Origin: Coprobacillus sp. CAG:698
GTDB lineage: Bacteria; Bacillota_I; Bacilli_A; ML615J-28; CAG-698
Assembly (NCBI GenBank): GCA_000431235.1
Contig: HF988734.1
Coordinates: 92 to 64,091, forward strand
Length of the DNA stretch: 64,000 nt
Direction of reading: 5' to 3'
Below are positions 8,061-44,561 of the stretch, in pieces. Below the pieces are notes generated by a model. That model saw nothing but the letters and a program-made list of their open reading frames with translations. It did not search any database and had not been told where the DNA came from. Each line of letters starts with the position of its first letter. Position 1 is the first letter of the stretch. The translations under genes and the position numbers were made by a program.

Positions 8061-11000
8061 ATGGATAGTATTAATATGCCAACTTGGCTAACGCCATCAT
8101 TTGTAGCTACTGGACTGACAATTTTAAGTATTGTAGTTATTCTCATAGGTTTTTTGATTGGATTTATTAGAGGCACGTATCGCGCAAGTTATCGTTTTAT
8201 TGTTTCAATAGTTGTTATATTGGGCCTATGGTTAATCATGCCGATATTCACAAACAAACTGTTATCACTTGATTTACACAAATTTAATTTAGAGATAATA
8301 AATGTAACAGGTTATAAATCTGTTGAAGGATTTCAAGTGAACTCAGTAAAAGATGCTGTGGATATATATTCACGTGTTCTTTTAGGCTTAACAACAGAAA
8401 ACGAAGGAGTATTAATCCTTAAAGAAACAAATATAAATATTGGCGAAACAATGATATATCAAACACTTATAAGTGCTGTTGAGATGTTATTAAGAGCTGC
8501 GTTGCTTCTTGTTATTATTATATTAAATTGGACATTATTTAGATTTATCTTCTTTATTGTTTATTTGTGTACTAAACCAAAGAGAGAAAATAAATATCAA
8601 AAGAAAAAAACAATGAAATCAAGATTAATTGGTTCACTAATTGGAACTGTTAATATGATTTGTATTTTATTAATAGTATGTATACCTCTTTCAGGAGTCT
8701 TTTCATTAGCTGAAAGTTCAGTTAAATTAATTGAGACTGAAGAAAGTGATGTTATCAAATTAAGTTTAAACAAAGAAGTTATTGATTTAGATGAGAATCC
8801 AGACTTCGTTGAATTTGCTAACGAAAATAAAGAATGGGTATATGTCTATCGTAAAACATTCTTAGGAAAAATTTTTGGAATTAAAGTAAGCAAAGATACG
8901 CCGTTAGATTGTGCACTATTTGATGGAATCTTCTCATTCAAAGCTGGAGGAGAAAAAATAGCTCTAAGAAAAGAATTAGATGTATGTCTAAAGGCTATGG
9001 AACCATTAAAAGATGAGATAATAATACCTTTAATTAAAAATGAAAATACTGCAACTATTTTAGATAATTTATCTAGTGATACGATAAAGAATTCATTAGA
9101 CAAGTTATCAGAACTAAAACTAGTCAATGCTGTAGTAAATGTTGGTTTAAATACGGGAATCATAATTGCTAAAAACGATGGTGAGATCTTCAAAGAATAT
9201 GTAAACTTAAAAGATATCTTACTAAGATTAGAAGGTAAAGAAATAAATGCCTCTGAATTATTACGAGAAATTGGTGATCTATCTGAAGCTATTTTAACAC
9301 TTACAAAAAGCAGTGGATATAAAATCAGTGAGTTACTTTCAGAAGACAATGGAAATACAGTTTCTAAACTTGTTGATATACTATTAAAAGTTGATACAAA
9401 TGTAGTCACAAATGTATTTGATGCCATTTCTAAAATTGAATTAATTGACTTAATCCAAGAAATTACTTTTCCAACTCTTGAAGATTATCTCAACAATAAC
9501 GAGAATTTAAATAGAATAATTTTATTATATCCAAAAGTTACTTTAGATGAAAACTATTTAGTTATAAATGGTATTAAAACTAATATTTTGTGGGATAAAG
9601 ATACATTAGAGAACATATCGTTTAAAGTTAGTAAAGATAACAAATGGATTGTTGATGGAAAAGAGACTAATTTAGATGCTAGTGGTAGTATTTTTAAAAT
9701 AAAACTTGATGGAATAAAATTAACAGATGAAGTTAAAAACATAGGCTCTTTATACAAAGCCTTTAAAGATTTAGATATTAATTCATTTAGTCAAATTCAA
9801 CTTTTAATTGAAAAAGGACAAGTTGAAGGAAGCTATGATCTAGAAAAAGCAACATATGATAAAATAGATAACTTATTTAAGAGTTTATTGGACTTTAAAA
9901 TTATTAGTAATTGTAAAGATAATATATATGCTATTTTAAATAATATGTTACCAAATGAGTATCGTAATTTGCTCAGTAGATGTAAATTTGATAGTGAAGA
10001 TTTAGCATCACTTGTGTATGCAGGTAAAGTAGTTGCAAGCACAGGAGTAATTTGGGATATAGATGGAAAATTAAAAACCGATGGAAACATCGATTATACA
10101 AAGGTTTATACTATTTTCAATAGTATAAAAGATGAATTATCAGAAAATCTAGCTAAATCAAGTATTATTGTTGAGAACATAAATACGGTGGCAAGCTACG
10201 CACTTAGTGTTTTTGCTCCAGATATGAAATTAGATTTTGCTTCTGTTGACTGGAAGAATAATAGTAAAGAAGAACTTAATAAACTATTTAATGTTTTGAA
10301 TGTATGTTTAAAACATGGCAATAAAATCACTTCAGATTTTTATAGTTTAACAGATGAAGAAATTGATGAAATAGCTAATGTATTAAAAGAAAATATTGCT
10401 ACTTCAGATTTATTAAAGAAGAATATGAATAATATAGTATCTGTAGTTTCAAATTTAGAATCACTAAAAGAACTAAATGCAACAATTGCTCCTCTTGATG
10501 AAGATGAATGGACTACCGAAGAATTAGATAGTATATTTGATTCAGTGAAAATAATCGTTAAGATGGTTAAAGCTTCTAGCGGAGATCAAAACAATCTTTT
10601 AGTCACTCTATTGAAACTAAATGAAAATGATATAAATACTATTTTGGATTCAAAATTCATATCATTAAATATTGTTTACAACTTATGTGCTCAAGCAAGT
10701 GAAGGTGGATTACTTTACGAAAAAGTAATTATTAACCTTGATAGAGATGATCCTTCTTGGTATGGAGATGAAGGTGAATTAAAAACAATATTATCAAATG
10801 CAATTAAATTAATTGATGGAGTGGATAATTTAGAAAACACAGATGAAGCTGTGGAAAAAATCGTTAAAAATATTTCTAAATTAAATAGCAACTTCAAGAA
10901 AGAAAATGATGATATTGGAAAACTTTTGTCAAGTAGTGTAATTTCTGATACGTTAATTTACTATTTAGAAAACCTTGATAAGTTCTTAGGTAAAGAAATC

Positions 11001-23241: not shown

Positions 23242-24474
23242 ATGAAAAAATTAGGAAAGATTATGAGCCTATACTTACTGCTTGCCTTGTTTGTTGGTTT
23301 ATTTGCTTGTTCTGATAGATTATTTACTGAAAGAAAAATAATGTCTAGTGAACTTACAAGTAATGTCCAAACAAGAGAAATTAAGGTTAAGGATATAGAT
23401 ATAACTTTCGAAAATATTTACAGCGAATTTGCTGTGAAGATGATGAAAGAGTTATATGAAGAAGAAAATACTTGTATATCTCCACTTTCAATAGCTGCTG
23501 CTTTTGGTATGGTTACAAATGGCGCAAATGGAAAAACAAAAGATGAATTGGAGTCATTACTAGGAACTGATGTCCAAACATTTAATTCTTATTTTGCATC
23601 ATTAATGAGTAAAAATGGAAAAAGTAAGAAATTATATCTAGCAAATTCGATATGGAGTCGAAAAGATGAAGTAACAGTCAAAGATGAATTTTTAGATATT
23701 GTTAAGAATAATTATCATGCTCAAGTTTATTCATCAGAATTTGATGATAATACAGTAAAAGATATCAATAATTGGGTTTATAACAATACACGAGGTGGTA
23801 TTGGCAATATAATCGAAAAAATTGAACCTTATGAAATACTTTTCTTAATTAATGCTCTTGATTTTGAGTCAGAATGGAAAGAAAAATTTGAGAAGAATGA
23901 AATCGTAAATAAAACATTCCATGGATTACAAAGTGAAAAAGAAGTTTCTATGATGTTCGCTACAGAACATACTTATATTGAGTCTAAAAATGCCAAAGGA
24001 TTTATAAAATCATATGCAGATGAGGATTATAAATTTGCTGCTCTACTTCCAAACGAAGATATATCAATCAAAGAATATATGAATTCTCTTACTGGCGAAG
24101 AACTCAATAAAATATTAGCAAATGCACAAAAAGAGTCTATTAGAATAGGCCTACCTAAATTTGATTTTGAAAACACATTTGATATGAAACCAACTCTAAA
24201 GAAACTAGGAGTAAATGAAGCATTTGAAGAATATGGTGATTTCACTAATCTTGGAACTAGTAAAAATGGAATTATGTATATAGGAAGCGTTATTCATAAA
24301 ACACACATTTCAGTAGATGAGATGAAAACAAAAGCAAGTGCGGTAACAAGTATTGGGATGACAAATGATTCAGCAGTAATGTTAAAACCAATTATTCTTG
24401 ATAAACCATTTATCTATATGATACTTGATAAAAATAATTTACCTATATTTATTGGTGCAATTGTAAACTTTTAA
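23242..24474 (+). CDS. Serpin-family (serine protease inhibitor) lipoprotein.
   Basis: Lipobox LFAC. Serpin-like core, with a hinge/reactive-centre-loop region (…KASAVTSIGMT…) and a C-terminal PIFIGAIVNF-type motif. RBS AAGGAGG. Confidence 0.65.
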   Translation: MKKLGKIMSLYLLLALFVGLFACSDRLFTERKIMSSELTSNVQTREIKVKDIDITFENIYSEFAVKMMKELYEEENTCISPLSIAAAFGMVTNGANGKTKDELESLLGTDVQTFNSYFASLMSKNGKSKKLYLANSIWSRKDEVTVKDEFLDIVKNNYHAQVYSSEFDDNTVKDINNWVYNNTRGGIGNIIEKIEPYEILFLINALDFESEWKEKFEKNEIVNKTFHGLQSEKEVSMMFATEHTYIESKNAKGFIKSYADEDYKFAALLPNEDISIKEYMNSLTGEELNKILANAQKESIRIGLPKFDFENTFDMKPTLKKLGVNEAFEEYGDFTNLGTSKNGIMYIGSVIHKTHISVDEMKTKASAVTSIGMTNDSAVMLKPIILDKPFIYMILDKNNLPIFIGAIVNF

Positions 24475-30895: not shown

Positions 30896-30907
30896 TAAGC
30901 AAATAAA

Positions 30908-30950
30908 AAATGGTCAACTGATACATATTCATAGTTGACCATTTATTTAC
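30908..30950 (+). terminator. Strong intrinsic terminator.
   Basis: Perfect 10-bp stem ATGGTCAACT/AGTTGACCAT followed by TTATTT. Confidence 0.65.
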
Positions 30951-31181
30951 TAGGGAAATTCATTTTATCTAAAATTTTAGTTAAATAATTCTTGCTTTAT
31001 AAAAAGATATATGGTAAAATATGGTTGTAATAATTAATAATACACTATAAAAAACACCTTAAACACGTAATAATATCCGCAGCAATATACGTAGCACAAT
31101 CTATACTCTTTTTAGGTAAAGGGTTTTTTTGCGTATTTGTTGATTATTAATTAATAGAATATTATACGAGGAGGAGTTAAA

Positions 31182-31241
31182 ATGAAACTTTATTTATTTT
31201 TGAAAAGAATTATCAAAGAGTCTTTTGGATTAGTGTATTAG
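31182..31241 (+). CDS. 19-codon small ORF with a very strong RBS, lying in a 395-nt intergenic region. It could be a leader peptide or a small protein.
   Basis: ACGAGGAGGAG, 7 nt, then ATG. Encodes MKLYLFLKRIIKESFGLVY. Confidence 0.3.
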   Translation: MKLYLFLKRIIKESFGLVY

Positions 31242-31290
31242 CTATTAATATACTAATCATAAAAACAAATAAAAAGAAAGGAAAGAAAAT

Positions 31291-31998
31291 ATGAAAAAAT
31301 TATTTTTAATAGTATTGTTACTAGTTTTGAGTATAGGACTTTTTGGATGTGAAATTAACAAAGAATACAGAGATGAAAATTTTAAATATAGATATCAAAC
31401 TTATATGAATCAAAACATTATACATCTAACAGGATTAACAGATGAAGGTAAGCAAAAGAAATATTTATATGTGCCTGGAAGATTTAAAGGCTGGAAAGTT
31501 GAAATAAGCTCGACATCAATATTAACAGATTTAGTCACATTGCAAAGTGATGTGCTTGAAAAGTTATATGTTTCAGTAGAAATTAGTACTTTGGGGTATT
31601 TAATTATAGGAGGAGATGCTAAAGTATTTGTCATATCAAATAAAATAGACTTTTATTCAAGATGTATTTGTAATTATGTAACATCAAAAAGATATTATGA
31701 GATAAATAATGATAAAAATTATTCATCAATTAATCTAGCCCCAGCCAATGTAAGTTATATATATAACTATGAAGATGCTCCTAATGATGGATATTATTTT
31801 ATTGATGATTGTAATAATGAATTAATTGAATTTGTACCTGATGACCCTGAAAGAGAAGGATACACTTTTAAAGGATGGTACAAAGAAGCAGAGTGCACAA
31901 GCAAATGGGATTTTGAAATTGACATTGTTCCTGAAAAAGATGATGAGGAATTTATAGAAACTAAATTATATGCTAAGTGGGATAAAATAAACAAATAA
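31291..31998 (+). CDS. Lipoprotein with a C-terminal Listeria-Bacteroides (Flg_new) repeat.
   Basis: Lipobox LFGC. YTFKGWYKEAECTSKWDFEIDIV...KLYAKWDKI. Confidence 0.6.
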   Translation: MKKLFLIVLLLVLSIGLFGCEINKEYRDENFKYRYQTYMNQNIIHLTGLTDEGKQKKYLYVPGRFKGWKVEISSTSILTDLVTLQSDVLEKLYVSVEISTLGYLIIGGDAKVFVISNKIDFYSRCICNYVTSKRYYEINNDKNYSSINLAPANVSYIYNYEDAPNDGYYFIDDCNNELIEFVPDDPEREGYTFKGWYKEAECTSKWDFEIDIVPEKDDEEFIETKLYAKWDKINK

Positions 31999-32009
31999 AG
32001 GAGTAAAAA

Positions 32010-35000
32010 ATGAAAAATACAAATAGAATAGCAAAAATATTCTTTTTTTCAATAATTATATTACTGATTATTACGTGCTTTGGACTTGTAAACATTAATG
32101 TTTATGCATCAATATCACCTGATGACATCTATACAGGGTATTCGTCAACACTTGATCGTAATACATTGAAAGAAAAAACTACTACGACAAATTTTACAAC
32201 TGTTGATTATGAGAACAATAATTTCGTATATAGCAGAACAACTGAAATGGTCGATGATTCAGAACCACTATTAACAGTTCTTGTACCTGGATATGGAAGT
32301 GAAGCGAGTGTTTGGAGTAATAGTTTTGAATATTTTCCTAAAACAGATTTTGTAAAATCTGAAGGTGAAGATGAGGATAAAAAACAAGAAAGAAAAAGAA
32401 AAATGGTATTTGCTTACGACTCTGATTCAATAATTGAGAGATTAAGACATGTATCAAATGCAAATGTTTATTGGGCAAAAATGAATTCTCATGATTCATT
32501 TGTTTTATATCAATTGCCTGATTTATCTGAACAAGAAAAATATGTTTCAGATATATTTCAAGTGAATAGGACAATTACGTATGAAGAATTAAATTTAATT
32601 TCATATAAAGAAAATGCAACAATAGTAAGACAAATTAGTGATATATCAAAACATTCAATAATTGTATTTGAATCTTTTAAACCAGAAAATAGTAATGATT
32701 TCGTTTATGAAGAACTAGATTACGTGATAGATAAGATTGTATATGATATTAAAGTTTTAAATGAAAATAAATTACCAAAAGTCAACTTAATTTCTCATAG
32801 TAGAGGTGGATTAACAGTAATGCAGTATACTTTAGATCACCCAGATTTAGTTGAAAATGTGTACACAATAGGTTCACCTTTTTTAGGATCAAAACTAGGC
32901 TCATCAGATTTGATTATAAGTTTTATATATGAAGAAAAAGATGAAGGTATAAATGATATTTTAGATTATAATTTGTATATGGCATATCAAAATAGATGGA
33001 ATAGTAACTACGAAATATTATATAATAATATAAACTTTAATGCAATTGGTGGTTATTCTTCAATAGATTTTATTGCTGAAATGCTTTTATATAATATTTT
33101 TAATGTACCTCAATGGGTGGGAATTATTACTTCTTTAATTAATAAAATAAAAATATTAGAAAATAGCATTATAGGATTAACAGCATTAATTGGTAAACTT
33201 GGTGATAAGTATGAATGGGGAGCTGCAATTAATAAATTTACAGATTCACTCAAAATAGAACATTTTAAAGATTTTTTTACAGGAAGACTTGTTATCGAAG
33301 ATGATTTATTTATAGATCTTGAGTCACAATTAGGTACAGGTTATTTAGGCTTTAAGGAATTCAAAAGGTGTTTTGAAATTGACAACTGTAATTTAAATAA
33401 AGTGGCACAGCCAAACACAGCAATAGTGCATAATTTAGAGTCTAGAGATGAAATAATAATTAATCATATAATGCAAGATATTACAATGATTGGAAAAAAT
33501 CCATCGGATTATGAAATATATTTGATTGATGAATCTTCAGTTGGAATAAAATCATATATAGGCAAATCATTAATTAATATGTTAGTAATACCTTCTGTTA
33601 TTGATAATAAAACTGTTGTTGAAATTGGTGAGTATGCTTTTTCAAATTTAAAATCTTCTCAATTAGTAGATACAATTTATATACCTACATCTATTGAAAC
33701 TATAAAAAAAGGTAGTTTCTATGATTGTGTGAACTTAGAAAATGTTTATTTTTCAAATACATCTAATGTTAGGAATATTGGAGAATCTGCATTTAGAAAT
33801 TGTATTAATTTAGCGAGTATTAGTATACCTAATTCAGTATTGTCAATAGGTGATAGATGTTATTATCTATGTAAAGATTTAACAACACTTGATATTGGAA
33901 GCGGCTTAACAAATATAGGAGATGCAGCTTTTGCATATTGTAATTTAAGCGTAGTAACAATAAATGAAAATACGAATTTTTCGTTTAGTAATAATACATT
34001 ATATGATGTAATTAACAACGCAATAATTAGTTGCAATTCTTCAAATGAAAATTTTGTTGTTCCAGATAATATAACTAAGATAAAAGATTATGCTTTTTAT
34101 GGAAATGAAAACATTTCATCTATTTCTTTAAATAATGTAACTGAAATAGGTGCTTATGCATTTGGAAAATGTACAAGTTTAGAGAATTTTGTTAATGCAG
34201 GCAATGTTAACAGGGCAAAGAGAAATTCATTTTATAACACTCCATGGTTAGATAATAGTAATATTAGACTAATTGGTAAAACACTTGTAAAATATGATGA
34301 TGAAAATAACAATGTTTATGTAGTTCCATCAAATATTAGCACAATAGGAGACGATGCATTCAATTCCTTTGAATTAGAAAAAATAATATTAAATGAAAGT
34401 ATAGAGTATATTGGTGAAAATGGCCTAGCAGCTTGTGTAAATTTAAATGATATATATTTTTTAAGAACTATACCATGCGTAATATTTAATAATAGTATTA
34501 TAAATAAGTCTACTATGAATATATATGTTCCTCAAATAGGACTTGATAGATATCGCAGTGATACAAAATTTTCAAAATATTATAATAGTATTAAAACAAA
34601 AAGTGTTATGTTGAAATTATATGATGGTCAAGTTATAATTGATAGTAAAACAGTTTTATTTGGCTCAATAATAAATAATATAAGACAACAAAATAAAACA
34701 GGTTATAGTTTTTCTGGCTGGAAAAATGAAAATACTAATGAAATATACAATACAGGATCATATTTAAATATATATGATGACCAAATAAATCTATATGCAC
34801 ATTATATACCTAATGAGTATATAATATATTTAAATAACGAAGGTATTTTTTTAAATGATGAATTAATACGTTATGGTGCAGTAGCAAGTTTGCCAGTACC
34901 ATATAAAAATGGATATGATTTCATTGGTTGGTTTGATGGGCCATCAGATAGTTATAATAGAATAACAACTAATGATGGTTTATTAATTAATAATTGGAGT

Positions 35001-36257
35001 TATGACCATGATAGCGTGTTGTATGCAGTTTATACACCTAAGGAATATAATATTACTTATGTTTTAAATAATGGTATATCACCAAATAATCCTTTAAAAT
35101 ATAGCTATGGCGATACTATTATTCTAAATGAGCCTAAAAGATACGGATATCATTTTAGTGGATGGAAAATAAATGATGTAATGACAAATGTAATTACACC
35201 GACAATGCAAGGTGATTTAGTGATTGAAGCTATTTGGATTGGTAGGACTATTAATTTGAATGGTATGGTTTCAGTTCATAATGTATCAAGTACAGCAGAA
35301 ATTATTAATCTATCTAATCTAACAACACCGAGCACAGGAATAGTCTTTAATATTCCAAGTAATGTTCTTCAGGTTACATTTATTGGAAGCACATCGAAAA
35401 GATATAGAGCTAGAATTAATATTGCTAATAGATCAACAAGTCTTTTGATTAATTTAGAAAACGTAGATTTTATTTCTCCTAATGGATATCATTGTATTGA
35501 TGCTGGTAAAGGAAATTATTCATTGCATCTTAACTGTGTTGGTACGAATTCATTAATAGGAGGAAGTGGTTTGTATGATGGTAATGATAATGGATTATCA
35601 GGATATTATGGTATATTAGCATATAGATTATTTATTTATGGTGATTCACTAAGTGTCACGGGTGGTAATGGAAGTAATGGATTAAATGGAACAAATGGTG
35701 AAAGAGGAATGGATGGAGTAAATGGTCCTAGCGGTGGCGCTTTTGATCCAATTCAAGGTGATTCTGGAACAGATGGGACAGATGGATCAAATGGAACAAA
35801 TGGCGGTCATGGTGGATTTGCTATTTACACAATTTCTAGATATTATAATAGTTGTAATCAATTAACTTTGACTGGTGGAAGAGGAGGCAATGGTGGAGCC
35901 GGTGGTAATGGTGGAGCTGGTGGTAATGGTGCTTCTGATGATTCATCTAGTATTTTTACTGGTGTTGGTGATCCTGGAAATGGAGGAAATGGAGGCAATG
36001 GTGGAAACGGCGGAAATGCTGGGTCTGGACAATATGCTAATAATAATGATTTGAATGGAAATAGATCACAAAATGGAACTCCCGGAAGAGGAGGAACAGG
36101 TGGAGCTGGTGGCACAGGGGGATTGGCAGGCTCTTATGGAAATGATGGAAACGATGGATCATTTGGATTATCAGGATTAAATGGAACAATCATTTCACAA
36201 TATTATATAAAATTAAATTGTCTTTCTGATACTTCTAAGAATAGTTTTATCACCTAG
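32010..36257 (+). CDS. 1415-aa mosaic surface protein. It has a signal/TM anchor, a lipase/esterase-like alpha/beta-hydrolase domain, BspA-type leucine-rich repeats, three Listeria-Bacteroides repeats and a C-terminal collagen-like Gly-X-Y / glycine-rich region.
   Basis: SHSRGG nucleophile-elbow-like motif. LRR units (…IGEYAFSNLKSS…IGESAFRNCINLASISIPNSV…IGDAAFAYCNLS…). Flg_new repeats YSFSGWKNEN, YDFIGWFDG and YHFSGWKIND. GXY runs such as GSNGLNGTNGERGMDGVNGPSGG and GGRGGNGGAGGNGGAGGNG. Confidence 0.7.
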   Translation: MKNTNRIAKIFFFSIIILLIITCFGLVNINVYASISPDDIYTGYSSTLDRNTLKEKTTTTNFTTVDYENNNFVYSRTTEMVDDSEPLLTVLVPGYGSEASVWSNSFEYFPKTDFVKSEGEDEDKKQERKRKMVFAYDSDSIIERLRHVSNANVYWAKMNSHDSFVLYQLPDLSEQEKYVSDIFQVNRTITYEELNLISYKENATIVRQISDISKHSIIVFESFKPENSNDFVYEELDYVIDKIVYDIKVLNENKLPKVNLISHSRGGLTVMQYTLDHPDLVENVYTIGSPFLGSKLGSSDLIISFIYEEKDEGINDILDYNLYMAYQNRWNSNYEILYNNINFNAIGGYSSIDFIAEMLLYNIFNVPQWVGIITSLINKIKILENSIIGLTALIGKLGDKYEWGAAINKFTDSLKIEHFKDFFTGRLVIEDDLFIDLESQLGTGYLGFKEFKRCFEIDNCNLNKVAQPNTAIVHNLESRDEIIINHIMQDITMIGKNPSDYEIYLIDESSVGIKSYIGKSLINMLVIPSVIDNKTVVEIGEYAFSNLKSSQLVDTIYIPTSIETIKKGSFYDCVNLENVYFSNTSNVRNIGESAFRNCINLASISIPNSVLSIGDRCYYLCKDLTTLDIGSGLTNIGDAAFAYCNLSVVTINENTNFSFSNNTLYDVINNAIISCNSSNENFVVPDNITKIKDYAFYGNENISSISLNNVTEIGAYAFGKCTSLENFVNAGNVNRAKRNSFYNTPWLDNSNIRLIGKTLVKYDDENNNVYVVPSNISTIGDDAFNSFELEKIILNESIEYIGENGLAACVNLNDIYFLRTIPCVIFNNSIINKSTMNIYVPQIGLDRYRSDTKFSKYYNSIKTKSVMLKLYDGQVIIDSKTVLFGSIINNIRQQNKTGYSFSGWKNENTNEIYNTGSYLNIYDDQINLYAHYIPNEYIIYLNNEGIFLNDELIRYGAVASLPVPYKNGYDFIGWFDGPSDSYNRITTNDGLLINNWSYDHDSVLYAVYTPKEYNITYVLNNGISPNNPLKYSYGDTIILNEPKRYGYHFSGWKINDVMTNVITPTMQGDLVIEAIWIGRTINLNGMVSVHNVSSTAEIINLSNLTTPSTGIVFNIPSNVLQVTFIGSTSKRYRARINIANRSTSLLINLENVDFISPNGYHCIDAGKGNYSLHLNCVGTNSLIGGSGLYDGNDNGLSGYYGILAYRLFIYGDSLSVTGGNGSNGLNGTNGERGMDGVNGPSGGAFDPIQGDSGTDGTDGSNGTNGGHGGFAIYTISRYYNSCNQLTLTGGRGGNGGAGGNGGAGGNGASDDSSSIFTGVGDPGNGGNGGNGGNGGNAGSGQYANNNDLNGNRSQNGTPGRGGTGGAGGTGGLAGSYGNDGNDGSFGLSGLNGTIISQYYIKLNCLSDTSKNSFIT
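35650..36180 (+). repeat. Low-complexity GGN/GGT codon repeat region encoding collagen-like GXY triplets.
   Basis: Runs of ggtggaNNN codons. The reverse-strand Pro-rich ORF 35858-36115 is its mirror image. Confidence 0.8.
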
Positions 36258-36297
36258 TGGAGAATCTTTCATTGAATTAACTATTCAATGTCAAGGA

Positions 36298-37851
36298 ATG
36301 TATTTTATAGAAACAAATTCTGTTTATGGAACTAATATGTATTTGCTTGATTATAATAAAAATCTAGTTAGCAATGTTAACGGATTTAGGATTAATAATG
36401 ATTTAGATATGTTTATTTTTCCTACACTTTCATCTGGAATTTATTATCTAAAAATCACAAATAATGATAATATAATATCAAATGTTGATGTGTCGTTTGA
36501 ATATCGAAATAATACATCAGAATGTTTAAATGTTAATCAACAAATTGAAATAGTAGATTGTATTCATAATAGTCAGAAAAAATATCTTTTATCGTTGGCA
36601 ACATCTGGGTTATATAAAATTGAACTAAACGCAATATCAGATTTTGATATTACATTTGGAACTGGAACAATAGAAATTTATTATAAAGATAGTCTTATGA
36701 AAAAAGTAAATATAAGCAACTTTTCTAATTACACACAAAGCATTCAAAATGCAAATAGTATTGTTTTCTTTGTAGAACAAAATAAAATATATTATGTTGT
36801 TATTAACTTTTCGCAGATTTATGTTGACCAATTGTATTTAAATTTAGAACCAGTAGAACAAATTGCATTTGGAGCTTACGATGACTATAATAGTGAAGAA
36901 GCTTTGATTTATGGGGATGCAGTTAAAAGATGGGTTGTTAAAGGAACTTCTCAATATAAAATTTCACTTGATTATTATGGAAATAGCATTTCTAACCATG
37001 AGTTTTATATTTTAAAACAAAATGGTAATAATATTATGTATATGGATTCTACAAGTTTCAGTGGATATGTTCATATGAAACATAGAGAAATGATAGTAAA
37101 TTTAAGTAATGATGATGTAATTTATTTAGGATATTTTGATGGTGTTTCAGATGGAACAATTAAAATAACGATTGAAAGAAATATAGCTCAATCCTTTGAT
37201 ATATTAGTTGATCCAAATAGTGGTTATACTGTTGGTTCAGAAGTAAATTTAGGCTTTGGTCCATATGGCGAAACTATAATTCATCAAGGCTTAACTAGAA
37301 TATGTTATTTAGGCCCAGACGCACCAGACTCACGATCTAGATTAAATTATGAGTGGATTTCTGCAGATGAAGGAATTGCTAAAGTTAGTGCCTATGGTAC
37401 TATTACTGCTATATCTCCAAGAAGAACAAAAATAATGCCGATATATAAATTAGATAAAACAATTGTTGGAACAATTTATATTGATGTAATTGGTTATCCT
37501 GGTGAGGGAATAATTTATTTAAATTATGGAATGGACGTAAGAGTAGATGGAACAATATCTGGAACAGAAGTAACAAGCGGAAGTGGCAGCATAATAGAAG
37601 TTTCATCTAGTCCATATGTGACTATTCATTTAGGTAATACAAGATTGATATGTTTAGGTAGTGATAGTCCTAGTTTGAGCATTCAAGATTTTGAATGGAG
37701 TTCGGGTGATACTAGCATAGCAACTGTATCAAGTTTTGGAACAATAAATGCACTTGAAGTTGGTAGCGTAGTTATTTATGGAAAGTATAAATATAATCAA
37801 AACTATAGAGTAAGGATTGATATAGAAGTATTACCATTAACTGATTATTAA
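36298..37851 (+). CDS. 517-aa secreted or surface protein with two C-terminal Big_2 Ig-like domains. Likely co-transcribed with the upstream mosaic gene.
   Basis: Big_2 motifs ADEGIAKVSAYGTITAISP and GDTSIATVSSFGTINALEVGSVVIYG. Start context CAAGGAATG. Confidence 0.55.
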   Translation: MYFIETNSVYGTNMYLLDYNKNLVSNVNGFRINNDLDMFIFPTLSSGIYYLKITNNDNIISNVDVSFEYRNNTSECLNVNQQIEIVDCIHNSQKKYLLSLATSGLYKIELNAISDFDITFGTGTIEIYYKDSLMKKVNISNFSNYTQSIQNANSIVFFVEQNKIYYVVINFSQIYVDQLYLNLEPVEQIAFGAYDDYNSEEALIYGDAVKRWVVKGTSQYKISLDYYGNSISNHEFYILKQNGNNIMYMDSTSFSGYVHMKHREMIVNLSNDDVIYLGYFDGVSDGTIKITIERNIAQSFDILVDPNSGYTVGSEVNLGFGPYGETIIHQGLTRICYLGPDAPDSRSRLNYEWISADEGIAKVSAYGTITAISPRRTKIMPIYKLDKTIVGTIYIDVIGYPGEGIIYLNYGMDVRVDGTISGTEVTSGSGSIIEVSSSPYVTIHLGNTRLICLGSDSPSLSIQDFEWSSGDTSIATVSSFGTINALEVGSVVIYGKYKYNQNYRVRIDIEVLPLTDY

Positions 37852-37920: not shown

Positions 37921-37962
37921 AAAGTTGTTACATAGCTTTCTAGTTAAGTAACAACTTTTTTC
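37921..37962. terminator. Bidirectional terminator.
   Basis: AAAA-GTTGTTAC...GTAACAAC-TTTTTT. Confidence 0.6.
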
Positions 37963-40666: not shown

Positions 40667-40747
40667 GTGTCCTTTTCAACTTGTAGATTTTAAACATTAA
40701 AAAGTACGTATGGAGTATAATGTATACGTAAAAAGGAGGAAGTGTAT

Positions 40748-42325
40748 ATGAGTATTTTAAAATCAAAAATCATTCGTAACTTCGTAAACACAATTTATTT
40801 ATTTGGACTTAATGCTTCAAGTGAGGTTCGTCAAATTATTATCAATTATCTTGAAAAAGTATTTAATTATAAATTAGATGATGAAACTAAAGATATTCTT
40901 CTTAATGATAGATTATCTCTTGAAGAAATAAATCTCTTTTTCCGAAAATACAAATATATGCTTTTGGATGGAGATGAAGTTGGAGAATTAGAAGAAGTAA
41001 AAAAAGTATATGAAGTAGCACGTGAAAGTATTAACTTATTTACAAGCTTAGAAATAAAAGTTGAAGATGATAGTATTTCAGTTCTTAAATCATTTGAAAC
41101 TTTACAAGAAGCTTTTAGTAAAAACTTAATTCTTGCTAATAGTATATATGGAGTAATTTATTATAATGGAATATTTAAGGATATAAATGTTGATAAAGCT
41201 AATATGTACTTTATAAAGAATGCTTTATGGAATAATGAATTTGCTATGTTAGCCTTAGCATTAAATTATAAAGAACAAAAAGATTATGAAAAGAGTTTAT
41301 ATTGGGAACGCATGGCGATGAAAATGAACTTTTTAGAAGAATGTGAAGAATATGATTTGCCAAAAAATGTTATCAAAAAAATAGAAAAAGAAGTTGAAAA
41401 GGATTATGAAATACATAAACTTTTAAAAGATGATCGTGCAAGTAGCCAATACAACTTACAAACTTATAATCCAAGTTTATCAAAAATACTTTATGATAAA
41501 TCATTTAATATTACTGAAAAGAAAGCTTTACTTTTCACACAACAAAAAATGGATTTTTCACATGTAAGTGCTTTAGTATGCGAAAAGAAAAAATATGAAT
41601 TATCAAAAATAAAATATAGTTTCCGTGCTGATGAGCAAGAAAGATTGATTAAAGCTTTAAAAGTTATCACAAGTAAAGAAAATAACTATCCATTAATTAT
41701 AAATTGTGAAAGCAAAGAAATTATTAATTTATATTCTAACTTTATTAATGAATATTTTAAAAATGATATCGTAAAAGATTTAGATGCCACTAGATGTGAT
41801 TATAATGCTCTTTTAAGAACATATGCACAAAATAACTATTTATATCAAATAGTAACTCAAAATGGATCTAATAATATAGTTATGAAATATCATAACTTAC
41901 ATGAAGTAAAAGATTCTAATCTTTCAATGTTCTTAAGTTTATTGAATCCTAATGAGAAGTATTTCATTCAAGATTTGATGGCATCTGTTGATAAGAGTCA
42001 TTTAATTAATATTATCTTTGTACAAAATTTACATTCATTAGATAGCCGCATTTTACAATCTTCAAATATCATAACTTTAAAGAAAGAAACAGAAGAAGAA
42101 AAAGAAGAAATTGTTCGCACAAAATTCTTAATTGAATTAGAAAACAAAGGAATCGAATATTCAAAAGAATATGATAAGTATATAGATAAAATAGCATCTA
42201 CAATATCATTTGAAAGAATATTTGAAGTAATCAATGAAGTTGTATCACGTGTTAGTTTCGAAACTGAAGATGTTCTTAATGAAATAATTGTACAAGCTAA
42301 AAACTCTCGTACAATTGGGTTTTAG
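40748..42325 (+). CDS. 526-aa all-helical hypothetical protein with Sel1/TPR-like repeat(s). It is the upstream partner of the T4CP-like ATPase.
   Basis: RBS AAGGAGG then ATG at 40748. Sel1-like segment MYFIKNALWNNEFAMLALALNYKEQKDYEKSLYWERMA. The stop is 10 nt before the next gene's start. Confidence 0.55.
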   Translation: MSILKSKIIRNFVNTIYLFGLNASSEVRQIIINYLEKVFNYKLDDETKDILLNDRLSLEEINLFFRKYKYMLLDGDEVGELEEVKKVYEVARESINLFTSLEIKVEDDSISVLKSFETLQEAFSKNLILANSIYGVIYYNGIFKDINVDKANMYFIKNALWNNEFAMLALALNYKEQKDYEKSLYWERMAMKMNFLEECEEYDLPKNVIKKIEKEVEKDYEIHKLLKDDRASSQYNLQTYNPSLSKILYDKSFNITEKKALLFTQQKMDFSHVSALVCEKKKYELSKIKYSFRADEQERLIKALKVITSKENNYPLIINCESKEIINLYSNFINEYFKNDIVKDLDATRCDYNALLRTYAQNNYLYQIVTQNGSNNIVMKYHNLHEVKDSNLSMFLSLLNPNEKYFIQDLMASVDKSHLINIIFVQNLHSLDSRILQSSNIITLKKETEEEKEEIVRTKFLIELENKGIEYSKEYDKYIDKIASTISFERIFEVINEVVSRVSFETEDVLNEIIVQAKNSRTIGF

Positions 42326-42335
42326 GAGGTAAATT

Positions 42336-44561
42336 ATGAATCGTAAAATTGATTTAATTAGTAAAAATCGTGAAAACACACCATTTTATGATTTTAAGGA
42401 TATAAAAAAATTATGTAAAGATCCTAATAATGAATATTTTGGTAAGTGTGTTCCTTATAATGAACTTGAAAACTATGAAACAAATTGTATTCCTATTGCT
42501 CACTTTTATGATGATAACAACAAATTACAAGTTGTATTTTCAAGAGATCCTTCTCATGCTTTAGGTATTGGATGTACAGGAGCAGGAAAAACAACTTCTT
42601 TAGTAATTCCTAAAGTTAATATTTTATCATCTCTTAAAAATAAACCATCATTTATTATCATTGATGTAAAAGGAGAACTTCATGATAAATTAAGTGGTCA
42701 TTTGAAAGAAAAAGGATATAATATAAAAGTTATTGATTTAGACGAACCAGAATATAGTGCATCATGGAATCCTTTATTAAGCATTTATGATAAATATATA
42801 GAAGCACATGAAATTGTCAAGAAAGTTGTTGAACATACAGATAGTATCTCAGATTATCCAAATCTTTCAAAGTTTGCATATAAAGGGAAACCAAGTGTAT
42901 GGTATGAATTTGATGATGTTGCTTATAGTGATTTAACAAATCTTAATAAAGCAATAAGTCATAAAAAAGAAAAGTTAATAGCCGATGTATCTGAAGAAAT
43001 ACGCGACTTATCATATATGTTTATCGTAACCCAAAACTTAGATGATCCTCACTGGGATGATACAGCTCGTGACTTGTTTGCAGGTGTAATCTTTGCAATG
43101 CTTGAACGTACAATACTTGAAGATGGTAAATGCTTAACAAGGAATCAGTTTAACTTACGAAACATTGTTAATGCCATCTTAGCATCAAGAGAAGATGATT
43201 TAAAGAGATTTATTAACAATAGCGATAGACGTGGGGAAGCTTATCGATTTGCAACAAGAATCGTTAATATGGAAGCAGAGAAAACTAAATCATGTTATTT
43301 TGGCGTTTTATCGACACAACTTTCACCATTTAAGAGTTATGCTATTCAAAAGGTTACAATTAAGAATACAATAGATTTTGATAGAATTACTGATGAACCA
43401 GAAGCAGTTTTTATCAAAATGGATGACTTGAAAGAATCTAATTACAAATTAGCTCAATTAATAATATTAAGATTATATCAACAAATCAAAAATATAGCTA
43501 AGAAAATGCCTGGAAGAACTCTTGCTAAACCTGTGCATTTTATCTTAGATGAATTTGGCAATTTCCCAAAATTTAATGAGTTTGCCAAAATGATTAGTGT
43601 GAGCCGTAGTTATAATATATGGTATACAATGATTGTTCAATCGTATAGCCAACTTAAAATGATTTATGGTGAAGGTGTATCAAATGTTATTATCGAAAAT
43701 AGTAACATGAGATTATTCTTTGGTACAAATGATTTCTATACTATGAAGAGTTTTTCAGAGGCTTGTGGGAAGAAAGCTAAAATATCTGAAGTAGCTTATT
43801 TGAATGTCAATTCATCTAATTTGTCAGCATGCCCAATTGAAGAATTTCCAACTGTACCGGTGTCTGATTTATCAAAGATTGATACATCTGAAGTTTATAT
43901 AACATGCTTTAGAATGCCAGTGTTACATTCAAGGATGGAAAGATATTATTTAGTTAAAGAGTTTGAACCTCTTCCACCAGTTGAATATAGAGTAATTGAC
44001 AATATTGAAATCGGAACTAAGGAATATACATTTGATATTGGCGAAGATGATAACATATTCTCAGGAAAGAAACAATTCCCATCAAAATATGTTCCAAATA
44101 AGAAAAAAGAAGCTGATATAACAAAGAAAATGTTAGCTTATTTTGAAGAATTATTAATCATAAAGAAACCTGGTAAAAATGCTATACGTTCATTTATAGA
44201 AGTATCACGTACTATTTTGCCTATGTATATACTTGATTATTTAAGTAATGTTAATGAAAGAAATATTTATATGGATTATAGGGAGTTATCAAAAAACAAT
44301 TTGATTACGAAAACAACGTTCTATAAAACATTAAATAAAGAAATAGTCACTGCGTTCTTGGAAAACGAAATAGAAAGCTTAGATGTTAATAAAGAAAGCT
44401 TTATGGATGATTTACGAAAAAGATTTGATGAAGTAATATTTAATTCGATGAACTATGCAGTAGCAATTTTCCCTCAAGAATTCTCTGAAAATCTTAAGTT
44501 TATACGAGATGATTTCGATACAAACACTTTAGATTACTTAAAAGAATTTATATTAAAATAA
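42336..44561 (+). CDS. Soluble VirD4/TraG/TraD-family (type IV coupling protein-like) P-loop ATPase with an extra C-terminal domain of about 240 aa. It has no N-terminal TM helices.
   Basis: Walker A GCTGAGKTTS. Walker B HFILDEFGNFPKF. TraG-D_C-like RSYNIWYTMIVQSYSQLKMIYGE. RBS GGAGGT. Confidence 0.7.
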   Translation: MNRKIDLISKNRENTPFYDFKDIKKLCKDPNNEYFGKCVPYNELENYETNCIPIAHFYDDNNKLQVVFSRDPSHALGIGCTGAGKTTSLVIPKVNILSSLKNKPSFIIIDVKGELHDKLSGHLKEKGYNIKVIDLDEPEYSASWNPLLSIYDKYIEAHEIVKKVVEHTDSISDYPNLSKFAYKGKPSVWYEFDDVAYSDLTNLNKAISHKKEKLIADVSEEIRDLSYMFIVTQNLDDPHWDDTARDLFAGVIFAMLERTILEDGKCLTRNQFNLRNIVNAILASREDDLKRFINNSDRRGEAYRFATRIVNMEAEKTKSCYFGVLSTQLSPFKSYAIQKVTIKNTIDFDRITDEPEAVFIKMDDLKESNYKLAQLIILRLYQQIKNIAKKMPGRTLAKPVHFILDEFGNFPKFNEFAKMISVSRSYNIWYTMIVQSYSQLKMIYGEGVSNVIIENSNMRLFFGTNDFYTMKSFSEACGKKAKISEVAYLNVNSSNLSACPIEEFPTVPVSDLSKIDTSEVYITCFRMPVLHSRMERYYLVKEFEPLPPVEYRVIDNIEIGTKEYTFDIGEDDNIFSGKKQFPSKYVPNKKKEADITKKMLAYFEELLIIKKPGKNAIRSFIEVSRTILPMYILDYLSNVNERNIYMDYRELSKNNLITKTTFYKTLNKEIVTAFLENEIESLDVNKESFMDDLRKRFDEVIFNSMNYAVAIFPQEFSENLKFIRDDFDTNTLDYLKEFILK

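What the first reader, a model, noticed from the sequence alone, without database searches (positions are those of the whole stretch)
31182..37851. Surface-protein cluster: leader-like small ORF, Flg_new lipoprotein, 1415-aa lipase-LRR-collagen-like mosaic, Big_2 protein
A single + strand cluster combines four unusual genes. Its combination of domains resembles host-interaction or adhesin proteins:
- A 19-aa ORF with a near-perfect SD, sitting in a 395-nt leader.
- A lipoprotein with a Listeria-Bacteroides repeat.
- A giant protein fusing an alpha/beta-hydrolase (lipase-like SHSRGG) domain, BspA-type LRRs, three Flg_new repeats and a C-terminal collagen-like GXY region.
- A 517-aa protein with two Big_2 domains.
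The enzyme + LRR + collagen-like triple-helix combination is uncommon.
Basis: partly seen in the sequence, partly recalled or inferred. Interest (0 to 1): 0.6.

Follow-up and report, generated by a model that had tools for sequence, protein, structure and literature searches.

The report
Broken giant surface lipase-adhesin gene
This is not a four-gene cluster: a small lipoprotein gene sits next to one giant secreted lipase-like, repeat-rich surface protein gene that a frameshift has split in two here, and most other strains of the same gut bacterium have largely deleted it, so it is an ordinary, decaying, strain-variable surface-protein locus.

Summary
Domain searches confirm the lipoprotein with one Flg_new repeat. 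They also confirm the lipase-like alpha/beta-hydrolase (invariant Ser264-Asp432-His474), the BspA-type LRRs, three Flg_new repeats and at least one Big_2 domain.

Two points do not hold.
- **The 1415-aa and 517-aa ORFs are one gene.** The closest orthologues (1928 and 1963 aa) align colinearly across both ORFs, with a frame switch between window 36249 and 36267. The 517-aa ORF has no signal peptide and evolves neutrally (1 synonymous, 9 non-synonymous changes). In other strains it carries further deletions.
- **The Gly-rich C-terminus is not collagen by any test run.** Pfam gives no hit. The G-X-Y runs are short and interrupted, with 2% Pro. AlphaFold predicts a compact module whose best solved matches are polyproline-II-bundle antifreeze proteins. 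This module has no Pfam entry but recurs at the C-terminus of at least 105 protein clusters.

The organism is 'Coprobacillus sp. CAG:698'. Most assemblies of this species carry a 3,923-bp deletion (32416-36338, between 10-bp direct repeats) that removes nearly the whole gene. The upstream lipoprotein is a conserved partner in two other species. The 19-aa ORF has no support beyond its existence.

The parts
30992..31020 (+). Candidate promoter: TTGCTT, 17-nt spacer, TGgTAAAAT (extended -10).
   Evidence: Read directly from the sequence. It lies just inside the block that travels with the cluster in strain L002, whose upstream breakpoint is at about 30970. This is inference only; the consensus scan did not list it.
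31183..31242 (+). 19-codon ORF (MKLYLFLKRIIKESFGLVY) with Shine-Dalgarno GGAGGA at 31171-31177. A 13-bp AT-rich hairpin overlaps its stop codon.
   Evidence: The ORF is identical in all strains, but so is the whole last ~320 nt of the intergenic region. No similar small ORF lies upstream of the orthologous pairs in L029 or L030. There is no Rfam match.
31291..31998 (+). 235-aa lipoprotein: signal peptide, lipobox LFGC (Cys20) and a C-terminal Flg_new (Listeria-Bacteroides) repeat. It is the conserved upstream partner of the giant gene.
   Evidence: Pfam Flg_new at 44 bits and TIGR02543. Orthologues with an invariant Cys20 lie directly upstream of the giant gene in L029 and in Haploplasma axanthum L030. 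The gene is hypervariable between strains and carries a nonsense mutation in L026.
32010..36257 (+). 5' part of the giant gene (1415 aa): signal peptide, hydrolase, LRR_5, three Flg_new repeats and the Gly-rich module. Shine-Dalgarno AAAGGAG at 31998-32004.
   Evidence: The only hydrophobic segment is at aa 3-36, and there is no LPXTG motif.
32247..33524 (+). Lipase-like alpha/beta-hydrolase domain (about aa 80-505). Ser264 is in SHSRGG (32799-32801), Asp432 is at 33303-33305 and His474 at 33429-33431.
   Evidence: The triad residues are invariant in 26 homologues. The AF2 model has pLDDT 84 and pTM 0.87. The best PDB folds are Lin2722/DUF915, Proteus mirabilis lipase, PlaB phospholipase and P. 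aeruginosa LipA. Sequence hits to family I lipases have E around 2e-4.
33525..34661 (+). BspA-type leucine-rich repeat region (LRR_5), about aa 506-884.
   Evidence: Pfam LRR_5 at 153 bits. PDB sequence matches are 4gt6, 4fs7 and TpLRR 6mlx.
34662..35234 (+). Three Flg_new (Listeria-Bacteroides) repeats, about aa 885-1075.
   Evidence: Pfam Flg_new at 68.5 bits in three stretches, and TIGR02543.
35235..36221 (+). C-terminal Gly-rich module (about aa 1076-1404). The first half is beta-rich. Five interrupted GGX/GXY runs follow. It is not collagen.
   Evidence: No Pfam hit at E<=1. The AF2 model has pLDDT 85. The best PDB matches are PPII-bundle antifreeze proteins 7jjv and 3bog. The module is conserved in 14 of the 120 listed homologues and in at least 105 50%-identity clusters at E<=1e-30, nearly always at the extreme C-terminus.
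36222..36267 (+). Frameshift zone in an interdomain linker. It holds 46 nt where a multiple of 3 is needed. The frame-0 stop codon is at 36255-36257.
   Evidence: tblastn places P0001 aa 7-1399 on 32037-36248 and aa 1408-1927 on 36268-37833 in the +1 frame; P0002 behaves likewise. The sequence was read. The same sequence occurs in independent assemblies.
36268..37851 (+). Out-of-frame 3' remnant of the giant gene. The 517-aa ORF runs from the ATG at 36298. It encodes beta-sandwich domains plus two Big_2-like domains (about 37315-37497 and 37630-37833). It has no signal peptide.
   Evidence: Window against L025 shows 1 synonymous and 9 non-synonymous changes (Fisher p=0.0014 against the flanking genes). 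Other strains carry further deletions.
32406..32415 (.). Left copy of the 10-bp direct repeat GTATTTGCTT at the boundary of the 3,923-bp deletion found in most strains.
36339..36348 (.). Right copy of the 10-bp direct repeat GTATTTGCTT. The deletion allele lacks window 32416-36338.
37924..37961 (+). Terminator-like hairpin (GTTGTTAC, 16-nt loop, GTAACAAC, then TTTTTT) that closes the transcription unit.
   Evidence: Read from the sequence. The scan did not report it because the stem is AT-rich and the loop long. This is inference.

Best explanation
The locus is a two-gene surface module of the uncultured human-gut bacterium 'Coprobacillus sp. CAG:698'.

**Gene 1** encodes a membrane-anchored lipoprotein that carries one Flg_new repeat.

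**Gene 2** originally encoded a Sec-exported protein of about 1,930 aa, with these parts in order:
1. A signal peptide.
2. A lipase or phospholipase-like alpha/beta-hydrolase with a Ser264-Asp432-His474 triad.
3. A BspA-type LRR domain.
4. Three Flg_new repeats.
5. A Gly-rich module, probably a polyproline-II/polyglycine-II type bundle and not a collagen triple helix.
6. Beta-sandwich and two Big_2 domains.

The likely job of the intact protein is to hold a lipid-ester hydrolase at the cell surface next to ligand-binding repeats. This lineage has no sortase and the protein has no LPXTG motif. Retention would therefore come from the uncleaved N-terminus, from the partner lipoprotein, or from both; this step is inferred.

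In this genome a frameshift in the linker after the Gly-rich module (36222-36267) ends the protein at 1415 aa. The truncated product has the same architecture as many natural family members, so it may still work. The downstream 517-aa ORF is a remnant that cannot be exported and drifts neutrally.

Most other strains have lost about 3.9 kb of the gene through a deletion between 10-bp repeats. The locus is therefore dispensable, strain-variable and being lost.
For: **One gene, not two.** Orthologues P0001 (1928 aa) and P0002 (1963 aa) carry all the domains in one protein. They align colinearly across both ORFs with a frame switch at 36249-36267.

**The frameshift is not an assembly error.** Identical sequence occurs in independent ENA and NCBI assemblies.

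**The remnant is not functional.**
- It has no hydrophobic segment.
- It shows 1 synonymous against 9 non-synonymous changes, whereas the flanking genes show 41 against 22. Fisher p=0.0014. The counts fit neutrality (p=0.36) and not omega=0.15 (p=0.0008).
- The window allele has G375R and A381P at Big_2 positions that are conserved in the outgroups.
- Other strains carry extra deletions of about 61, 7 and 36 bp.

**Deletion allele.** Its junction and 10-bp repeat are shown. About 50 of roughly 60 listed contigs carry the new N-terminus that the deletion creates.

**Hydrolase.** The triad is invariant in 26 homologues. The AF2 model matches lipase and phospholipase folds.

**Gly-rich module.** In most family members the protein ends right after this module.

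**Lipoprotein partner.** It is conserved directly upstream in two other species, one of them Haploplasma axanthum.

**No sortase route.** There is no LPXTG motif. Order ML615J-28, which holds family CAG-698, is reported to lack srtA/B (PMC10868615).
Against: - No expression or activity data exist.
- The strains with the long allele are clonal (0-2 SNPs in the cluster, none in the big gene). Constraint on the 1415-aa part therefore cannot be measured, and it too may be non-functional.
- The 517-aa ORF is still open in most strains. The neutral-evolution argument rests on only 10 substitutions.
- The oxyanion-hole motif reads PG here, where the family consensus is HG.
- The lipoprotein tethering role is pure inference.
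- Assigning CAG:698 to GTDB family CAG-698 is inferred from the name only.
Confidence: 0.72

Rival explanations
1. One reading: four independent functional genes, including a stand-alone 517-aa Big_2 protein and a leader peptide that regulates the operon.
For: All four ORFs are open. The 517-aa ORF is open in most strains. The small ORF has a strong Shine-Dalgarno sequence and is invariant among strains.
Against: - Homology to single-chain orthologues continues upstream of the 517-aa ORF's ATG in its own frame.
- That ORF has no signal peptide and only a poorly spaced AAGGA immediately before its ATG.
- Its substitution pattern is neutral, and other strains carry additional disrupting deletions.
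- The small ORF is absent from the orthologous loci, and no known RNA family matches the leader.
Confidence: 0.08
2. The break is a programmed +1 frameshift or a phase-variable switch, so the cell can still make the full ~1,930-aa protein.
For: The shift falls in an interdomain linker at a stop codon (ACC UAG U). Surface proteins are often phase-variable. The downstream frame is still open.
Against: - There is no homopolymer or short tandem repeat at the site.
- There is no slippery codon that allows re-pairing: ACC to CCU would mispair.
- There is no upstream Shine-Dalgarno-like stimulator.
- The orthologues are in a single frame.
- All long-allele assemblies have the same out-of-frame sequence.
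- The downstream part accumulates non-synonymous changes and deletions.
Confidence: 0.05
3. The C-terminal Gly-rich region is a true collagen-like triple helix, as in Scl1/Scl2 or BclA, that trimerises the protein.
For: G-X-Y periodicity occurs in runs of up to 13 triplets. NCBIfam SclB gives a weak hit (E=5e-4). Some Gly-rich homologues are named 'collagen-like' by their sources.
Against: - Pfam Collagen gives no hit at E<=1.
- SclB scores 19 bits against a cut-off of 325.
- The runs are interrupted by conserved beta-strand segments.
- Pro is 2%, and GGX dominates over G-Pro-X.
- AF2 folds a monomer compactly with high confidence in the Gly-rich stretches.
- The best solved matches are PPII-bundle antifreeze proteins, not collagen.
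Confidence: 0.08
4. The frameshift and the deletion are assembly or sequencing artefacts, and the gene is intact in vivo.
For: All the data are metagenome assemblies of an uncultured organism.
Against: - The same frameshifted sequence appears in at least 3 independent samples and assemblers.
- The deletion allele appears in at least 14 contigs from other cohorts, with a clean microhomology junction.
- The frameshift site has no homopolymer.
Confidence: 0.03

Closest known systems
Uncharacterised 'alpha/beta fold hydrolase' + LRR_5 + Flg_new proteins of Acholeplasmatales and gut Bacilli/Clostridia MAGs, for example Haploplasma axanthum P0005 and Alteracholeplasma palmae BN85403520 (P0060)
   Same: The domain order is the same: signal peptide, hydrolase with HSRGG, LRR_5, Flg_new, and in a subset of members (14 of the 120 listed homologues) the Gly-rich C-terminal module. 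The catalytic triad is invariant. A Flg_new lipoprotein gene lies directly upstream.
   Different: The window gene descends from the longer subtype, which has an extra beta-sandwich + Big_2 tail like P0001 and P0002. It is broken by a frameshift. No member of the family has been characterised experimentally, as far as the library searches show.
BspA-type LRR surface proteins (Tannerella forsythia BspA, Treponema LrrA/TpLRR; structures 4gt6, 4fs7, 6mlx)
   Same: The LRR_5 repeat type is the same (153 bits, with strong PDB sequence matches) and so is the presumed ligand-binding surface role.
   Different: Those proteins have no N-terminal hydrolase and no Gly-rich module, and they use other anchoring systems.
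Bacterial family I lipases, DUF915 esterases and Legionella PlaB phospholipase (1ex9, 4gw3, 3ds8, 6wpy, 6zth)
   Same: The alpha/beta-hydrolase fold, a nucleophile elbow of the type x-H-S-x-G, and a Ser-Asp-His triad.
   Different: Identity is only 11-16%. The window domain is much larger (about 430 aa), with a long helical insertion at about aa 360-425 that is predicted with low confidence. It has SHSRG in place of G/AHSxG. It is fused to adhesin-type repeats. Its substrate is unknown.
Polyproline-II/polyglycine-II helix bundles (snow-flea and springtail antifreeze proteins 2pne, 3bog, 7jjv; the phage gp38 receptor-binding 'PGII sandwich'; models of mycobacterial PE_PGRS)
   Same: GGX/GXX triplet runs separated by short turns. 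The best Foldseek matches of the AF2 model are 7jjv (E=8e-6, prob 0.9) and 3bog. gp38 appears further down the lists.
   Different: TM-scores are low. Here the Gly-rich runs are grafted onto a ~140-aa beta-rich half and alternate with conserved beta-strands. No ice-binding or phage context applies. The fold assignment is tentative.
Bacterial collagen-like proteins (Streptococcus Scl1/Scl2, Bacillus BclA)
   Same: Gly occurs at every third position over short stretches, and the location is a cell surface.
   Different: It fails the Pfam Collagen and NCBIfam SclB thresholds. It has no long uninterrupted G-X-Y tract, almost no proline and no LPXTG motif.

Membership tests
BspA-type LRR (Pfam LRR_5, PF13306) | The profile score exceeds the gathering cut-off, with multiple repeat stretches. 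| tested here: met
   153.3 bits against 27.7 in three stretches. PDB homologues 4gt6 and 4fs7 match at E=1e-29 and 8e-26.
Listeria-Bacteroides repeat (Pfam Flg_new PF09479 / TIGR02543) | The profile score exceeds the cut-off. | tested here: met
   The lipoprotein scores 44.4 against 27. The giant protein scores 68.5 against 27 in three stretches. TIGR02543 scores 27-32 against 20.95.
Alpha/beta-hydrolase, lipase or esterase type | Nucleophile elbow (small-x-Ser-x-small) and a conserved Ser-Asp-His triad. | tested here: met
   The motif is SHSRGG. S264, D432 and H474 are invariant in 26 homologues. Abhydrolase_1 scores 30.4-32 against 25.8.
Alpha/beta-hydrolase, lipase or esterase type | An alpha/beta-hydrolase fold that resembles solved lipases. 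| tested here: met
   The AF2 model has pLDDT 84 and pTM 0.87. Foldseek against the PDB returns Lin2722, Proteus lipase, PlaB and LipA at prob 1.0, E=4e-7 to 1e-4, with TM (target-normalised) up to 0.64.
Alpha/beta-hydrolase, lipase or esterase type | Lipolytic or esterolytic activity. | not testable with these tools
   This needs an enzyme assay. Note also PG in place of the consensus HG at the oxyanion-hole motif.
Collagen triple-helix repeat (Pfam PF01391; Scl/BclA-type proteins) | The profile score exceeds the cut-off. | tested here: not met
   No Pfam hit on the isolated module at E<=1. NCBIfam gly_rich_SclB scores 19.1 bits against 325.
Collagen triple-helix repeat (Pfam PF01391; Scl/BclA-type proteins) | A long uninterrupted G-X-Y tract, typically rich in Pro or charged pairs. 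| tested here: not met
   The longest run is 13 triplets and the others are 7-9. They are interrupted by conserved non-Gly segments. Pro is 2% and GGN/GGX predominates.
Collagen triple-helix repeat (Pfam PF01391; Scl/BclA-type proteins) | Trimerisation. | not testable with these tools
   Only a monomer was modelled.
PPII/PGII helix-bundle fold | Antiparallel PPII helices built from GGX/GXX repeats, with structural similarity to solved bundles. | tested here: inconclusive
Bacterial Ig-like domain group 2 (Pfam Big_2 PF02368) | The profile score exceeds the cut-off.
   37.1 bits against 22.8, but only one stretch (aa 461-493). The second copy (about aa 340-400) is seen only as an internal repeat, and as a second stretch in orthologue P0001.
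Bacterial lipoprotein (Lgt/Lsp substrate) | An N-terminal signal peptide that ends in a lipobox with an invariant Cys. | tested here: met
   The N-terminus is MKKLFLIVLLLVLSIGLFGC. By my own inspection it fits the PROSITE-type lipobox pattern as I recall it. Cys20 is invariant in all five sequences aligned, which are orthologues from three species. Lipidation itself was not tested.
Sortase-anchored (LPXTG) surface protein | A C-terminal LPXTG-like motif, a hydrophobic segment and a charged tail. | tested here: not met
   No [LIVS]PX[TSA][GANS] motif and no C-terminal hydrophobic segment occur in any of the three proteins. The lineage is reported to lack srtA/B (PMC10868615).
Programmed +1 ribosomal frameshift (prfB-like) | A slippery codon that allows re-pairing, a stimulatory element, and conservation of the shift in orthologues. 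| tested here: not met
   The site reads AUC ACC UAG U with no re-pairing and no upstream Shine-Dalgarno-like element. Orthologues are in a single frame.
Leader peptide or cis-regulatory leader | Conservation of the small ORF or of an RNA structure across related loci, or a match to a known family. | tested here: not met
   No Rfam match at the gathering score or at E<=1. The fold z-score is only -2.0. No comparable small ORF occurs in L029 or L030. Within the species the whole region is invariant, so it is uninformative.

The most novel reading that the evidence does not exclude
The conserved gene pair may be a sortase-independent surface-display system of wall-reduced or sortase-less Bacilli (Acholeplasmatales, ML615J-28 and relatives). 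In this reading, a small Flg_new lipoprotein docks a giant secreted lipase-adhesin. The C-terminal module of that protein, which has no Pfam entry, would be a new bacterial polyglycine-II/PPII-bundle binding domain, analogous to the phage gp38 receptor-binding tip. The repeated independent inactivations within one gut species (frameshift, 3.9-kb deletion, nonsense mutation in the lipoprotein) would then reflect selection by host immunity or by phage against displaying it.
Probability: 0.15. Interest if true: 0.55.

Novelty: new member of a known kind. Interest (0 to 1): 0.3.

Why it matters
On its own the locus is a routine example of a strain-variable, decaying surface-protein gene in an uncultured gut bacterium. 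It shows that the 'Big_2 protein' and similar annotations in public records (for example CCY08077.1) are gene fragments.

Two by-products have some wider use:
- A Gly-rich C-terminal module of about 330 aa with no Pfam entry recurs in at least 105 protein clusters. It may be a bacterial PPII/PGII-bundle domain and merits a family definition and a solved structure.
- The pairing of a Flg_new lipoprotein with a giant lipase-like/LRR protein is conserved. This suggests how lineages without sortase might keep large enzymes and adhesins at the cell surface.

Tried and rejected
- **Rfam.** Neither the whole window (gathering score) nor the leader (E<=1) gave anything beyond chance miRNA hits on the upstream terminator hairpin.
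- **Leader folding.** The z-score is -2.0, which is not compelling.
- **Small ORF in other species.** A search upstream of the orthologous pairs in L029 and L030 found none.
- **GTDB genome scan.** The scan with the 1415-aa protein did not recover the source genome. It gave one good relative (L004), which sits at a contig edge and so gives no upstream context.
- **Lipoprotein as a paralogue of part of the giant protein.** BLASTP shows only the shared Flg_new repeat plus a marginal 29-bit match. The idea that its N-terminal half is an LRR_5 cap is therefore left as an impression from motifs.
- **Literature.** Searches for the family found no characterised member.
- **Horizontal acquisition.** Rejected. 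GC content (27-28%) matches the rest of the window, and the flanks are syntenic in all strains.
- **Other surveys.** PHROGs searches of neighbouring unknown ORFs returned nothing. NCBIfam gave no equivalog-level match for the cluster proteins and no hit for the neighbouring 1914-aa ORF.
Full report
**What is in the sequence**

The window has about 28% GC and is almost entirely + strand.
- A 395-nt intergenic region (30896-31290) holds a 19-codon ORF at 31183-31242, preceded by GGAGGA.
- A 235-aa ORF lies at 31291-31998.
- A 1415-aa ORF lies at 32010-36257, with the Shine-Dalgarno sequence AAAGGAG 6 nt upstream.
- After a 40-nt gap and in the +1 frame, a 517-aa ORF lies at 36298-37851.
- An AT-rich terminator-like hairpin follows at 37924-37961.

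**Domain checks**

Pfam results:

| Protein | Family | Bits | Cut-off |
|---|---|---|---|
| 235-aa lipoprotein | Flg_new | 44 | 27 |
| 1415-aa protein | LRR_5 | 153 | 27.7 |
| 1415-aa protein | Flg_new (three stretches) | 68.5 | 27 |
| 1415-aa protein | Abhydrolase_1 | 30.4 | 25.8 |
| 517-aa ORF | Big_2 (one stretch) | 37 | 22.8 |

- The 235-aa protein starts MKKLFLIVLLLVLSIGLFGC, a signal peptide followed by a lipobox.
- The LRR region matches solved BspA-like LRR proteins 4gt6 and 4fs7 at E=1e-29 and 8e-26. The nucleophile-elbow region matches family I lipases weakly, at E around 2e-4.
- In an alignment of 26 homologues, the HSRG motif (Ser264), Asp432 and His474 are invariant.
- An AlphaFold model of aa 36-505 (pLDDT 84, pTM 0.87) is most similar to Lin2722/DUF915, Proteus mirabilis lipase, Legionella PlaB phospholipase, LipC12, BlEst2 and Pseudomonas LipA.

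The 'lipase-like' reading is therefore supported at the level of fold and catalytic residues. Activity remains untested.

**The Gly-rich C-terminus is not collagen by any test available**

- Pfam gives no hit at all on the isolated module, even at E<=1. NCBIfam SclB scores 19 bits against a cut-off of 325.
- G-X-Y periodicity is real but comes in five runs of 13, 9, 7, 7 and 7 triplets. Conserved non-Gly segments separate the runs. Gly is 33%, Asn 13% and Pro only 2%.
- The whole ~330-aa module, a beta-rich half followed by the Gly-rich runs, is conserved at 28-50% identity in 14 of the 120 listed homologues.
- AlphaFold folds it as a compact monomer (pLDDT 85), with high confidence in the Gly-rich stretches, which DSSP labels neither helix nor strand.
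- The best solved-structure matches are the polyproline-II-bundle antifreeze proteins of springtails and snow fleas: 7jjv at E=8e-6 and prob 0.9, then 3bog. Weak right-handed beta-helix hits follow. TM-scores are low, so the fold assignment is tentative.
- A profile search of 1.84 billion representatives finds 105 clusters at E<=1e-30. Almost all cover the whole module and place it within about 30 residues of the C-terminus of proteins of roughly 1,400-2,000 aa.

This is an undescribed but common C-terminal domain.

**The 1415-aa and 517-aa ORFs are one gene**

- The two closest homologues, P0001 (1928 aa, 49% identity) and P0002 (1963 aa), contain hydrolase, LRR_5, Flg_new and Big_2 in a single chain.
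- tblastn places P0001 aa 7-1399 on window 32037-36248 in the frame of the 1415-aa ORF. It places aa 1408-1927 on 36268-37833 in the frame of the 517-aa ORF.
- Homology (FIELTIQCQG against FIELTVQCSG) runs upstream of the 517-aa ORF's ATG.
- Between the conserved 'NC' and 'FIEL' anchors the window has 46 nt, one more than a multiple of three. The lesion lies in the linker right after the Gly-rich module.
- The site has no homopolymer, no slippery sequence and no stimulator. The orthologues are in a single frame. Programmed frameshifting and classical phase variation are therefore unlikely.
- The same sequence is present in independent ENA and NCBI assemblies, so it is not an assembly error.

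**Population context**

Exact-match look-ups identify the organism as 'Coprobacillus sp. CAG:698' (CCY08075.1, CCY08077.1, CCY08078.1).

- **Deletion allele.** Most 517-aa cluster members start MKTRIKNKKEKEKW rather than MYFIETNSVYGTNM. Their contigs (L025-L028, about 99.1-99.4% identical in the flanks) lack window 32416-36338. This is a 3,923-bp deletion between two copies of GTATTTGCTT. It leaves a 121-aa N-terminal stub and the out-of-frame 3' part. Among the listed members, about 50 contigs carry the deletion allele and about 5-7 carry the long allele.
- **Neutral drift of the 3' part.** Between the window and L025 the 3' part has 1 synonymous and 9 non-synonymous differences. The 17 flanking genes total 41 and 22. 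Fisher p=0.0014. The counts are compatible with neutrality (p=0.36) but not with omega=0.15 (p=0.0008). The window allele carries G375R and A381P at Big_2 positions that are conserved in the outgroups.
- **Further lesions in other strains.** One has a ~61-bp deletion (37416-37476, strain 28_7). Another has 7-bp and 36-bp deletions (36465-36471 and 36765-36800). In L026 the lipoprotein gene has a nonsense codon at position 97.
- **No export route.** The 517-aa ORF has no hydrophobic segment at all.

It is therefore a gene remnant, not a 'Big_2 protein'. The long-allele strains are clonal, so constraint on the 1415-aa part cannot be assessed. That product ends exactly where most family members naturally end, so it may still be functional.

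**The lipoprotein is a conserved partner**

In a MAG that encodes P0004 (L029), and in Haploplasma axanthum (L030), a homologous lipoprotein gene ends 2 nt before the giant gene. It has an invariant lipobox Cys, a shared N-terminal motif and a C-terminal Flg_new repeat. L029 also holds a second, split copy.

None of the proteins has an LPXTG motif. A published survey reports that order ML615J-28, which includes family CAG-698, lacks srtA/B sortases while mostly retaining peptidoglycan (PMC10868615). Linking this genome to that family is my inference from the name. A tethering role for the lipoprotein is a reasonable but untested hypothesis.

Within the species the lipoprotein gene is the most divergent gene of the region (pS 0.05-0.12, pN/pS 0.5-0.6).

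**The leader and the 19-aa ORF**

The small ORF and its Shine-Dalgarno sequence exist and are identical in all strains. However, the whole last ~320 nt of the intergenic region is also identical, apart from a 20-nt tandem duplication in the deletion-allele strains.

- No Rfam family matches.
- The fold is only mildly better than shuffles (z=-2.0).
- No similar small ORF precedes the orthologous pairs.

Its function, if any, cannot be judged. In strain L002 the cluster has a different upstream neighbour (lgt), with the breakpoint at about 30970. The leader therefore travels with the cluster.

**Verdict**

The gene count and the collagen reading are wrong.

The locus is a member of a large, uncharacterised family of lipase-like/LRR/Flg_new surface proteins, paired with a Flg_new lipoprotein. 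In this species it is broken and mostly deleted.

Interest is modest. The points worth keeping are the Gly-rich C-terminal module, which has no Pfam entry, and the conserved lipoprotein pairing.

Noticed in passing
window 8061-13805 (+): A 1914-aa ORF has several N-terminal transmembrane segments and no Pfam hit above cut-off. It also has no NCBIfam or PHROGs hit at all. It is a giant membrane protein of unknown family.
   Followed up: partly
window 40742-44561 (+): A VirD4/TraG-type coupling protein (741 aa: T4SS-DNA_transf, TrwB_AAD_bind, TraG-D_C) follows a 527-aa protein of unknown family. The pair sits between aldose epimerase and EF-P. It is conserved in all strains under purifying selection (pN/pS 0.04-0.13), with no other conjugation genes nearby.
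   Followed up: partly
window 23242-24474 (+): A 410-aa bacterial serpin gene (Pfam Serpin) lies among housekeeping genes.
   Followed up: no
window ~30960-30975; L002 8940-8961: In one strain (L002, ERZ501773) everything upstream of about window 30970 is replaced by a different context (thr operon, NAPRTase, lgt). This is either a strain-level rearrangement whose breakpoint lies between the flavin-reductase terminator and the cluster's putative promoter, or an assembly chimera.
   Followed up: partly
window 31139-31158; L025 ~8740-8780: A 20-nt unit, TATTTGTTGATTATTAATTA, lies just upstream of the small ORF's Shine-Dalgarno sequence. It is tandemly duplicated in the deletion-allele strains L025 and L026 but single in the window and in L002.
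   Followed up: no
window 31291-31998: The lipoprotein gene is far more divergent between strains (3.7-7% nt, pS up to 0.12) than its invariant upstream leader and the neighbouring genes (about 0.5-1%). Its 90% cluster also contains 75-aa 'cell wall/surface repeat protein' fragments from elsewhere in the genome. This hints at recombination with paralogous Flg_new genes.
   Followed up: partly
L029 4479-5998: In the MAG that encodes P0004, the partner lipoprotein gene is tandemly duplicated. The upstream copy is split into 95-aa and 131-aa ORFs. This is decay of the same module in another species.
   Followed up: no
window 30905-30947: A strong hairpin (AAAAAATGGTCAACT...AGTTGACCATTT) lies after the flavin-reductase gene and is probably its terminator. 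It is the source of the chance miRNA hits in Rfam.
   Followed up: no
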